This document shows, in pieces, positions 11,227-12,469 of a stretch of DNA of 12,469 nucleotides. A model generated the notes under the pieces. The model searched no databases. It was not told the origin of the DNA and was given only the letters and a program-made list of their open reading frames with translations. The stretch is from a virus. The stretch lies in the UHGV virus genome UHGV-0112027, one strand, 5' to 3'. Position 1 is the first letter of the stretch. Every line of letters begins with the position of its first letter. The translations under genes were made by a program, and so were the position numbers.

Positions 11227-11286
11227 GGCCTGTACATATCTGATAGATCCGCTATATGGCGGTTTCTTTTTGCCTGGAGAATTAAG

Positions 11287-11478
11287 ATGACCGATACCAG
11301 CCTGATTCCTGAGAAAGAAGTGATGAACAAGCTCGGTGTTTCATCACGTCAGACAATCTGGAACTATACCAAACGGCACGGATTTCCGAAGCCAGTCAGA
11401 ACCCACCCCAAATCATACCTTCGTGAAGCTGTTGAGGGGTGGATTCTTAACGGTGGCGTTAATCAGAAATGCTCCTGA
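11287..11478 (+). CDS. AlpA-family excisionase / prophage regulatory protein (Xis-like HTH)
   Basis: 63 aa; GGAGAA RBS; motif LGVSSRQTIWNYTKRHGFPKPV is characteristic of the AlpA/Vis family; lies adjacent to the integrase. Confidence 0.8.
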   Translation: MTDTSLIPEKEVMNKLGVSSRQTIWNYTKRHGFPKPVRTHPKSYLREAVEGWILNGGVNQKCS

Positions 11479-12469
11479 TGTGCCAGAACAATTTATCAGC
11501 GTGAAGCTCATACGCTTTGCGCTGAGCCTCTATCCAGTCGTGTTTATTGTATACGGACATTATCCCGCCAAGTTCATGACCGAGCATTCGCTCAGTAACA
11601 TGAGGCTCGACATTCATCTCGGACAGACGTGTAACAAGCGTTCTTCTGAAATCATGTGTTCGCCAGTAACCTAGATCCATCCCTCCCCTTATTCTATTTA
11701 CGAATCGGTTGGCTGCAGCGATGCTGATCGGTTTGTTTATGTCTTCTCCAGGGAAAAGAACATCATTGTACGTTGTCATGGCCTTTTCGAGAAAAGGCTT
11801 AATTTGTTCGAAAATTGGACGACGGATAACATTACCCATCTTGCTATGCTCTTTCGGTACGGTCCATACGTTGTCCAGCAGGTCAAATTCTGTCTTTGTT
11901 GCCAGCCTAAGCTCTGAGAGCCTCGCCCCCCACAGCATAAGCATCTGATGAAGTAGCTTATTTGACGTAGACGCACGGCTTCTTTCAATAGCAAGCCAAA
12001 TCTTAGCCAGTTCGTGATACGACAGTACCCGATCCCCTACCTCAGCGCGGGAGCCGAAGTCCCTTGGCTGGATGCTCATAATTGCGCAACTATCTATCAA
12101 CTGACGCCGCATGCACCAACTTATTGCTGATCTTAGTTGACTTAGCACCTGCCTTGCTCGGCGTGGATTATCTCTTTCTTCTTCGGTAAGCAGGTCAACC
12201 CATTGCTTAACCGTGATAGAAGATGCCGGACGATTAGGAAAGGCGTCATGCATGCGCTTCATAACCGTTGATCGGTAAAGTGCCTGGGTCTTTTCTCTGA
12301 GAGTTGTAGAGACGTAGTTGTCGAACCAGTAGTCGAGACACTGGGCGACCGTCATGGAGTTCTCCACCTTCTCTTCAAAATAGGTGCGTGGATCCGTTCC
12401 TGAGAAATAGAGCTTTCGCAAGTCAGCGGTGATCTGTCTGGCATCCTTCAAAGACAGGGATGGGTATCG
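11459..12469 (-). CDS. int: Tyrosine-type site-specific integrase, partial (N-terminus beyond window end)
   Basis: Open frame to the window edge (the track start at 12451 is an internal TTG; upstream codons RYPSLSL are in frame); C-terminal catalytic signature HDFRRT ... GHELGGIMSVYNKHDW (R-H-R-Y). Confidence 0.9.
   Translation of the reverse strand, partial: RYPSLSLKDARQITADLRKLYFSGTDPRTYFEEKVENSMTVAQCLDYWFDNYVSTTLREKTQALYRSTVMKRMHDAFPNRPASSITVKQWVDLLTEEERDNPRRARQVLSQLRSAISWCMRRQLIDSCAIMSIQPRDFGSRAEVGDRVLSYHELAKIWLAIERSRASTSNKLLHQMLMLWGARLSELRLATKTEFDLLDNVWTVPKEHSKMGNVIRRPIFEQIKPFLEKAMTTYNDVLFPGEDINKPISIAAANRFVNRIRGGMDLGYWRTHDFRRTLVTRLSEMNVEPHVTERMLGHELGGIMSVYNKHDWIEAQRKAYELHADKLFWHIRSISD

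What the first reader, a model, noticed from the sequence alone, without database searches (positions are those of the whole stretch)
11227..12469. Integration module is inverted relative to lambda: AlpA-type xis converges on int and their 3-prime ends overlap by 20 nt
The xis-like gene (+ strand, ends 11478) and int (- strand, ends 11459) are convergent and overlap. PL-derived transcripts would therefore be antisense to the int 3-prime end, and int must be driven from its own promoter beyond the window edge. A weak hairpin plus T-run (about 11249-11271) precedes the xis-like gene. The att site is not in this window and must lie beyond the int 5-prime end.
Basis: seen in the sequence. Interest (0 to 1): 0.45.

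Follow-up and report, generated by a model that had tools for sequence, protein, structure and literature searches.

The report
Known phi24B-type convergent xis-int cassette
The overlapping, head-on excisionase and integrase genes are real, but they form a widespread and already described phage integration cassette (Stx phage phi24B type, inserting into the E. coli sbcB gene), so the finding is correct but ordinary.

Summary
A 63-aa xis-like ORF (+, 11287-11478) and a tyrosine integrase (-, stop at 11459, running off the window edge) converge and share 20 nt. The cassette (hairpin, xis, int) is 98.6-99.4% identical to published phages HK140, HK544, mEp234, Sf101, 2851 and 1717. Its junction occurs in about 10% of complete E. 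coli genomes.

The att site lies outside the window, 215 bp beyond the int ATG, inside the 5' end of sbcB. The 13-bp core TTTCACGATTACG is duplicated at both ends of a 38.3-kb prophage.

Xis and Int are 47% and 55% identical to those of Stx phage phi24B. Fogg et al. (2011) showed that int there is inverted relative to lambda and has its own CI-independent promoter, and that the adjacent small ORF is a working excisionase.

In 63 related sequences from many Enterobacterales the two genes always converge. 41 overlap by 14-23 nt, with the int stop codon inside the conserved Xis GG(V/I)N codons. 22 carry 0.6-1.7 kb of cargo between the genes, so the overlap itself is dispensable.

Novelty is low.

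The parts
11234..11250 (.). Mosaic joint, the left boundary of the exchangeable xis-int-attP cassette
   Evidence: The window matches the early region of PhiR30_1-type phages up to about 11233, and the HK140/Sf101/2851-type cassette from about 11251. At the same joint PhiR30_1 carries a lambda-oriented int instead.
11249..11272 (+). Weak hairpin (CCGCTATATGGCGG) plus T-run; a terminator-like element just upstream of xis
   Evidence: Annotated as a rho-independent terminator in HK140. Similar elements occur upstream of xis in the phi24B clade and in L018 and L038, but are absent from most relatives.
11287..11478 (+). xis-like gene: 63 aa, the predicted recombination directionality factor, last gene of the + strand early operon
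   Evidence: ORF with a GGAG ribosome-binding site. 47% identical (E = 4e-19) to phi24B Xis, which was shown experimentally to direct excision. PHROG 66 'excisionase and transcriptional regulator', E = 1.9e-8. Pfam Phage_AlpA 17.8 bits, below the cut-off of 21.
11459..11478 (.). 20-nt 3'-3' overlap of xis and int. The int stop codon (TAA, reverse complement of 11459-11461) lies across the codons for V58-N59 of the invariant Xis GG(V/I)N motif.
11459..12469 (-). int: P4-like tyrosine integrase, C-terminal 336 of 392 codons. The first 56 codons, the promoter and attP lie beyond the window edge.
   Evidence: Open frame to the window edge. The full-length homologue in E. coli CUWW06 (L001 12560-13738) has Arm-DNA-bind_3 (E = 7e-18) and Phage_integrase (E = 1e-16). 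55% identical to phi24B Int.
7231..7259 (+). Best sigma-70-like site (TTGATA-17-TATTAT), a candidate early-left promoter for the + strand operon that ends with xis. Context only, inferred.
   Evidence: It lies downstream of the cI-like repressor (5153-5881) and a bidirectional terminator (7063-7080), and upstream of gam/bet/exo.

Best explanation

Shown:
- The cassette consists of a small terminator-like hairpin, xis, a convergent P4-like int and attP, and it is swapped between phages as a unit.
- attP lies 215 bp upstream of the int ATG.
- Three direct TTTGGTAC(G/A)C repeats lie 9-52 nt upstream of the int ATG, and two more lie on the far side of the 13-bp core.

Inferred from homology with phi24B, KplE1 and P4:
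- int is read from its own promoter inside the int-proximal att arm. It is therefore expressed in the lysogen independently of the repressor, and is probably damped by Int binding to those repeats.
- xis is the last gene of the repressor-controlled early-left operon, behind at least one weak terminator. Xis therefore appears only after induction and alone sets the direction (excision).

The 20-nt overlap is an inherited, dual-coding junction of this cassette family. Convergence is the conserved property. The overlap itself is not required, because close relatives work with 0.6-1.7 kb of cargo inserted exactly there.
For: - Geometry.
- Identity of the cassette: it is 98.6-99.4% identical to HK140, HK544, mEp234, Sf101, 2851, 1717 and Stx2a_WGPS8. 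The junction is in 551 of 5,426 E. coli genomes.
- att site: the attB/attP/attR alignment places the crossover in TTTCACGATTACG within sbcB codons 12-16. The core is duplicated at both prophage ends, 38,310 bp apart, in strain CUWW06. The same 13-mer was published for Sf101 and 2851.
- Homology to phi24B: Xis 47% and Int 55% identical, with the same TraR-DUF4222-xis-int synteny and a 17-nt overlap in HM208303. Fogg et al. 2011 report inverted int, pInt mapped by 5'-RACE, no CI repression, and xis validated in an excision assay.
- Survey: 63 of 63 sequences holding both genes are convergent. 41 overlap by 14-23 nt and 22 are separated by cargo.
- Arm-type repeats.
- Precedent for autoregulated int promoters that overlap att: KplE1 and P4.
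Against: - No promoter for int reaches the scan threshold in the 182 bp between int and sbcB; only 8/12 matches are found.
- The repeats are not shown to bind Int.
- Whether early-left transcripts pass the terminator-like sites at 9644, 10604 and 11249 is unknown, and no N-like gene was recognised in the window.
- Xis function in this particular clade has not been tested. Pfam AlpA is sub-threshold, and profile comparisons with TorI and AlpA are not significant.
Confidence: 0.85

Rival explanations
1. The convergent layout is itself a regulatory device, a functional analogue of lambda sib retroregulation. After induction, early-left transcripts run through xis into antisense int, lowering Int synthesis by polymerase collision or by RNase III cleavage of the duplex. 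In the lysogen, int transcripts run antisense through xis and suppress leaky Xis, which stabilises lysogeny.
For: Convergence is invariant in 63 of 63 related sequences, including those with cargo inserted between the genes, and the cargo is always co-oriented with int. No conserved terminator follows xis on the + strand. In the window the first terminator-like site is 301 nt inside antisense int, and most relatives have none. No convincing terminator follows int on the - strand within xis. Mature transcripts must therefore be complementary over far more than 20 nt.
Against: There are no transcript data. No conserved RNA structure lies at the junction. Convergence may simply be inherited, since all the loci are homologous and so amount to few independent events. 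In phi24B the excision and integration phenotypes were explained without invoking antisense effects.
Confidence: 0.2
2. The 63-aa protein is mainly an AlpA-like transcription factor that switches on int or other genes, as AlpA does for intA in CP4-57, rather than an architectural excisionase.
For: NCBI annotation of homologues is 'AlpA family transcriptional regulator' or 'helix-turn-helix transcriptional regulator'. PHROG 66 is described as 'excisionase and transcriptional regulator'. P4 Vis and TorI both also regulate int expression.
Against: The 47%-identical phi24B protein converted attL/attR plasmids back to attP/attB when co-expressed with Int from a foreign promoter. That is a direct directionality function. 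The two roles are not mutually exclusive.
Confidence: 0.1
3. The overlap is an annotation or ORF-calling artefact, and the true xis or int ends earlier.
For: Stop codons are not ambiguous, so there is essentially none. The only soft point is that the last 4-5 residues of both proteins vary between clades.
Against: Both frames run to the stated stops. The int stop sits inside the invariant GG(V/I)N codons of Xis in all 41 overlapping relatives. Independent annotations of SEN34, AU6Stx1, phi24B, HK140 and RefSeq E. coli records show the same overlap.
Confidence: 0.02

Closest known systems
Stx phage phi24B (vB_EcoP_24B) int/xis module; Fogg et al. 2011, Nucleic Acids Res 39:2116 (PMC3064807); also Stx2 phage 86
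   Same: Int is homologous (55%) and Xis is homologous (47%). int is inverted relative to lambda, and xis sits at the int 3' end in the lambda orientation. The 3' ends overlap (17 nt in HM208303), attP lies about 200 bp upstream of int, and the upstream genes are the same (TraR-like, DUF4222).
   Different: The att specificity differs: sbcB here, against the phi24B primary site and its many secondary sites. The overlap is 20 nt rather than 17 nt, because the Xis tail is one codon longer. The paper never comments on the overlap (0 occurrences of the word). Multiple lysogeny has not been examined for this clade.
sbcB-integrating lambdoid phages 2851, 1717, Sf101, HK140, HK544 and mEp234
   Same: The same cassette at 98.6-99.4% nucleotide identity. 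[quoted passage not shown]
   Different: Nothing differs in the cassette. The rest of the genome does differ: the window's early region is of the PhiR30_1/4A7 type.
KplE1 (CPS-53)/HK620/Sf6 recombination module; Panis et al. 2010, PLoS Genet 6:e1001149 (PMC2951348)
   Same: Transcription of int and the RDF gene is uncoupled. The int 5' end abuts att, so the int promoter must overlap an att arm, and excision is gated by RDF expression. The Int is P4-like.
   Different: In KplE1 torI and intS are co-oriented and flank attP, so they sit at opposite prophage ends. Here xis abuts the int 3' end. Int is only 22% identical to IntS. Xis shows no significant similarity to TorI.
Phage lambda int-xis-attP
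   Same: The same physical order: early-left operon, xis, int, att. xis is under repressor control through the early-left operon. Curiously, xis and int also overlap there, by 23 nt.
   Different: Lambda int is co-oriented with xis and is read from PL and PI. attP and sib lie downstream of the int 3' end. The lambda overlap is xis 3' end on int 5' end (tandem), not 3'-3'.
Satellite phage P4 int/vis and CP4-57 intA/alpA
   Same: An integrase with the DUF4102-type arm-binding domain plus a small AlpA/Vis-like HTH partner. In P4, int has its own promoter next to att and is negatively controlled by Int and Vis (as summarised).
   Different: Int is only 23% identical to IntA. The partner gene is not adjacent to int and does not overlap it in CP4-57. 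The host element here is a full lambdoid phage.

Membership tests
phi24B-type recombination cassette (inverted P4-like int + small xis) | Integrase homologous to phi24B Int, with an arm-binding domain plus a tyrosine recombinase domain | tested here: met
   55% identity over 391 aa, E = 4e-169. Arm-DNA-bind_3 and Phage_integrase are above the Pfam cut-offs.
phi24B-type recombination cassette (inverted P4-like int + small xis) | Small ORF homologous to phi24B Xis, on the opposite strand and abutting the int 3' end | tested here: met
   47% identity, E = 4e-19. The genes converge, with a 20-nt overlap here and 17 nt in HM208303.
phi24B-type recombination cassette (inverted P4-like int + small xis) | attP upstream of the int 5' end | tested here: met
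   Not in the window. In 99%-identical relatives the core lies 215 bp upstream of the int ATG and is duplicated at both prophage ends.
phi24B-type recombination cassette (inverted P4-like int + small xis) | int transcribed from its own promoter, independent of the CI repressor | not testable with these tools
   Shown only for phi24B. Here there are only weak consensus matches.
phi24B-type recombination cassette (inverted P4-like int + small xis) | Xis required for excision, Int alone sufficient for integration | not testable with these tools
   Shown for phi24B by a plasmid assay.
Pfam PF05930 Phage_AlpA (TorI, P4 Vis, AlpA) | Score at or above the Pfam gathering threshold | tested here: not met
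   17.8 bits against a cut-off of 21. No NCBIfam hit. I therefore call it a homologue of phi24B Xis, not a demonstrated PF05930 member. Fogg et al. linked phi24B Xis to PF05930 by HHpred.
Pfam PF05930 Phage_AlpA (TorI, P4 Vis, AlpA) | Winged-helix / MerR-like HTH fold, or profile similarity to TorI or AlpA | tested here: inconclusive
   hhalign against TorI gives E = 0.38 and against AlpA E = 0.096. A PDB profile search gives only weak hits, including 8c3t 'AlpA family' at E = 0.024. The single-sequence AlphaFold model has pLDDT 59.5 and is unusable. PHROG 66 'excisionase and transcriptional regulator' scores E = 1.9e-8.
KplE1/HK620/Sf6 recombination module | RDF gene and int gene flank attP, at opposite ends of the prophage | tested here: not met
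   In K-12, intS is next to argW and torI next to dsdC, both on the + strand. Here xis and int are adjacent, on the same side of att.
KplE1/HK620/Sf6 recombination module | int promoter overlaps an att arm that carries Int-binding sites | tested here: inconclusive
   Three TTTGGTAC(G/A)C repeats lie 9-52 nt upstream of the int ATG and two lie beyond the core. Neither the promoter nor binding has been mapped.
Lambda-type int-xis operon | xis and int co-oriented and co-transcribed from PL, with att/sib downstream of the int 3' end | tested here: not met
   The genes are on opposite strands. No att core lies near the int 3' end.

The most novel reading that the evidence does not exclude
The invariant head-on arrangement, with or without the overlap, may be a built-in antisense or transcriptional-interference circuit that replaces lambda's sib. 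In that reading, induced early-left transcripts silence int once excision is done, and constitutive int transcripts, reading antisense through xis, keep leaky Xis below the excision threshold in lysogens. The gap between the two stop codons would double as a protected, lysogen-expressed cargo slot downstream of int.
Probability: 0.2. Interest if true: 0.45.

Novelty: already known. Interest (0 to 1): 0.15.

Why it matters
The practical value is correct annotation. The small ORF should be called an excisionase (a phi24B Xis homologue), the integrase is an sbcB-targeting P4-like enzyme, and the prophage end lies about 400 bp beyond the window.

The biology is known from phi24B. An int gene freed from repressor control allows integration functions to be present in lysogens (multiple lysogeny in Stx phages), while excision stays locked by xis.

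Two things are not yet in the literature I could search. The first is that the 3'-3' junction is conserved across Enterobacterales, with the int stop codon embedded in the Xis GG(V/I)N codons. The second is that this junction is a recurrent insertion point for cargo co-oriented with int. That is a modest comparative observation, not a new mechanism.

Tried and rejected
- **att in the window:** searching the window for the att core (up to 2 mismatches) and for arm-type repeats gave nothing beyond chance. This rules out att at the int 3' end.
- **Fold of Xis:** the single-sequence AlphaFold model was too poor to search with (pLDDT 59.5).
- **Profile comparisons:** the Xis alignment against TorI and AlpA was not significant. 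The PDB sequence search gave only marginal HTH hits.
- **Conserved terminator after xis inside antisense int:** none was found. A hairpin plus T-run 19 nt after the xis stop in a few relatives is a by-product of the palindromic codons for Int 'AYELYA'.
- **Conserved terminator before xis:** present in the E. coli clades only, so it is not a family feature.
- **Promoter scan upstream of int:** no hit at the tool's threshold. Relaxed matches are weak.
- **Apparent presence in half of all E. coli genomes:** this was mostly hits to the TraR/DUF4222 part of the query. The cassette junction itself is in about 10%.

Full report
**1. Observation**

The window holds a + strand ORF at 11287-11478. It is 63 aa, starts with ATG, and has GGAG 7 nt upstream. 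A - strand ORF has its TAA stop at 11459-11461 and stays open for 337 codons to the right edge of the window. The two genes converge and share 11459-11478, which is 20 nt.

It is weak: 5 pairs, and its context folds no better than shuffled sequence (z = -0.23). The GenBank record of phage HK140 annotates exactly this element as a rho-independent terminator.

**2. What the genes are**

The full-length integrase of a 98.9%-identical prophage (E. coli CUWW06, L001 12560-13738, 392 aa) has an Arm-DNA-bind_3 domain and a Phage_integrase domain. It is a P4-like heterobivalent tyrosine recombinase, 22-23% identical to IntS and IntA of K-12. The window contains its C-terminal 336 codons. The first 56 codons lie beyond the edge.

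The 63-aa protein has only a sub-threshold Pfam Phage_AlpA hit (17.8 bits against a cut-off of 21) and no NCBIfam hit. It matches PHROG 66 'excisionase and transcriptional regulator' (E = 1.9e-8). Most importantly, it is 47% identical (E = 4e-19) to the Xis of Stx phage phi24B. The integrase is 55% identical to phi24B Int.

**3. Where att is**

I aligned the CUWW06 junction next to int, the empty dacD-sbcB region of K-12, and the annotated attP of HK140. The alignment places the crossover in TTTCACGATTACG, within the first codons of sbcB. In HK140 the core is at L002 4597-4609, 215 bp upstream of the int ATG at 4382.

In CUWW06 the same 13-mer occurs once near dacD (L075 23616) and once at sbcB (L001 13953). 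The two copies are 38,310 bp apart and bracket the prophage. The dacD-side copy is preceded by the native sbcB 5' end and followed by the phage arm. [quoted passage not shown]

Five direct TTTGGTAC(G/A)C repeats are present. Three lie 9-52 nt upstream of the int ATG and two lie beyond the core. One single-mismatch match in the whole 12.5-kb window is what chance gives. These are the likely arm-type Int sites. That is an inference.

In window-equivalent coordinates the int ATG would be at about 12637 and the core at about 12852-12864.

**4. The cassette is known and common**

From about 11251 rightwards the window is 98.6-99.4% identical to HK140, HK544, mEp234, Sf101, Stx2c phages 2851 and 1717, and Stx2a_WGPS8. 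The junction segment 11240-11620 is present in 551 of 5,426 complete E. coli genomes. The larger count came from the TraR/DUF4222 part of the query.

Leftwards, up to about 11233, the window instead matches PhiR30_1/4A7-type phages. Their int at the same joint is co-oriented with the early operon, as in lambda. The alignment places the mosaic joint at 11234-11250, between the DUF4222 stop codon and the hairpin. The unit hairpin-xis-int-attP is therefore an exchangeable cassette.

**5. Experimental precedent**

Fogg et al. 2011 (PMC3064807) studied phi24B and made four points:
- int is transcribed in the lysogen from its own promoter, with the start site mapped by 5'-RACE (about 29 nt upstream of the corrected TTG start, as I derive from the reported offsets).
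- int is not repressed by CI.
- The small ORF next to the int 3' end, oriented like lambda xis and presumably under PL, is a functional excisionase.

The phi24B record shows int at 236..1405 (+) and xis at 1389..1571 (-). That is a 17-nt 3'-3' overlap, preceded by DUF4222-like and TraR-like genes as in the window. The paper never mentions the overlap.

Panis et al. 2010 (PMC2951348) generalised the consequence of an int gene whose 5' end abuts att. The promoter overlaps the att arm, Int and the RDF repress it, and RDF expression alone gates excision. KplE1 itself differs in layout, because torI and intS flank attP.

**6. How conserved the layout is**

I collected relatives of the Xis protein from annotated phages (loci), from one genome per species and from IMG/VR. 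I then located Xis and Int in each by tblastn.

Of 63 sequences that hold both genes, counting the window, all 63 are convergent:

| Arrangement of the two stop codons | Sequences |
|---|---|
| Overlap of 20 nt | 19 |
| Overlap of 17 nt | 19 |
| Overlap of 23 nt | 2 |
| Overlap of 14 nt | 1 |
| Separated by 0.56-1.73 kb | 22 |

The overlapping set spans Escherichia, Klebsiella, Salmonella, Serratia, Kluyvera, Citrobacter, Chimaeribacter, Pantoea, Yersinia, Cedecea, Mixta, Izhakiella and Hafnia. Xis identities to the query run down to 52% and Int identities down to 49%. Many sequences are near-duplicates, so the number of independent lineages is smaller.

In every overlapping case the int stop codon lies across the (V/I)-N codons of the invariant Xis C-terminal motif GG(V/I)N. 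The different overlap lengths only reflect how many residues follow that motif.

The 22 separated cases are Klebsiella-type, with Int 84-85% identical to phi24B Int. They carry one to three variable ORFs in the gap, all co-oriented with int. One of these ORFs matches the PADLOC candidate defence family PDC-S42. Both proteins change sequence exactly after GG(V/I)N and before the Int tail.

The conserved property is therefore convergence. The overlap is an ancestral compact junction that can be broken without loss of the cassette.

**7. Mechanism**

*Shown:* the geometry, the homology, the att position and the repeats.

*Inferred:*
- int is read from a promoter in the 215 bp between its ATG and the core. 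Only weak consensus matches are found there.
- This promoter overlaps the three arm-type repeats, so int is expressed in lysogens and probably autoregulated.
- xis is the last gene of the + strand operon that starts near the best promoter-like site at 7231-7259. That site is downstream of the S24-type repressor gene (5153-5881) and a bidirectional terminator (7063-7080).
- Early transcripts must pass several terminator-like hairpins (9644, 10604, 11249) to reach xis. No N-like gene was recognised, so how they pass is open.

Any transcript that does cover xis continues into antisense int. The first terminator-like site is 301 nt inside int, and no such site is conserved among relatives. Likewise, no convincing terminator stops int transcripts within xis. 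I rate a real regulatory role at about 0.2.

**8. Verdict**

The precision needed is that only int is inverted, while xis and the order xis-int-att are as in lambda. The arrangement is already known, both as this exact cassette in published phages and as the characterised phi24B module.

The only new elements are comparative: family-wide conservation of the junction, the stop codon embedded in GG(V/I)N, and the junction's use as a cargo slot. Interest is low.

Noticed in passing
L008, L044-L048, L050-L063, L065-L066 (e.g. L046 3175-4904; L054 3175-4162; L059 3175-3730): In Klebsiella-type relatives the xis/int junction is split by 0.56-1.73 kb of variable cargo ORFs, always co-oriented with int and therefore plausibly lysogen-expressed. 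One of them (L046 3975-4862, - strand) matches the PADLOC candidate defence family PDC-S42 (E = 2e-37). The junction looks like a cargo hotspot.
   Followed up: partly
Beyond the window edge; HK140 L002 4564-4609 and L001 13920-13965: attP carries a surrogate sbcB 5' end: a start codon plus about 15 codons, and presumably a promoter. In lysogens SbcB therefore begins MTDADKQPTFLFHDYE instead of the native MMNDGKQQSTFLFHDYE. The early-left operon is co-oriented with sbcB, so read-through after induction would enter sbcB.
   Followed up: partly
window 6116-7030 and 7063-7080: A 304-aa DUF6414 ORF sits just downstream of the cI-like repressor and is followed by a strong bidirectional terminator. 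This is the classic moron/rex-like slot. The near-identical CUWW06 prophage has a HipA-family kinase plus a DUF3037 protein in the same slot.
   Followed up: no
window 11234-11250: A mosaic recombination joint lies between two phage lineages, immediately upstream of the hairpin. At the same joint the sister phage PhiR30_1 carries a lambda-oriented int. The two kinds of integration module are therefore swapped at one site.
   Followed up: yes
window 4800-10700: There are 17 terminator-like hairpins against 5.9 expected, several of them on the + strand inside the early-left operon (9644, 9862, 10604). No N-like antiterminator gene was recognised between the candidate PL (7231-7259) and gam (7819).
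   Followed up: no
L014 and L024 (xis match at 3001-3186): Two Xis homologues (Leclercia, Pantoea) have no Int homologue within 3 kb downstream. They are either orphan copies or are paired with an unrelated recombinase.
   Followed up: no
L015, L017, L035, L036, L039 (19 nt after the xis stop); window 11497-11519: The codons for the Int C-terminal motif AYELYA are palindromic. In some relatives they create a 7-bp hairpin plus T-run on the xis strand, which is a possible embedded xis terminator. In the window (AYELHA) the stem is only 5 bp and the T-run is missing.
   Followed up: partly
L013 (CACSKA010000001.1): A contig labelled Chryseobacterium sp. carries an enterobacterial-type xis/int cassette with a 20-nt overlap. 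This is probably a mislabelled or contaminated assembly.
   Followed up: no
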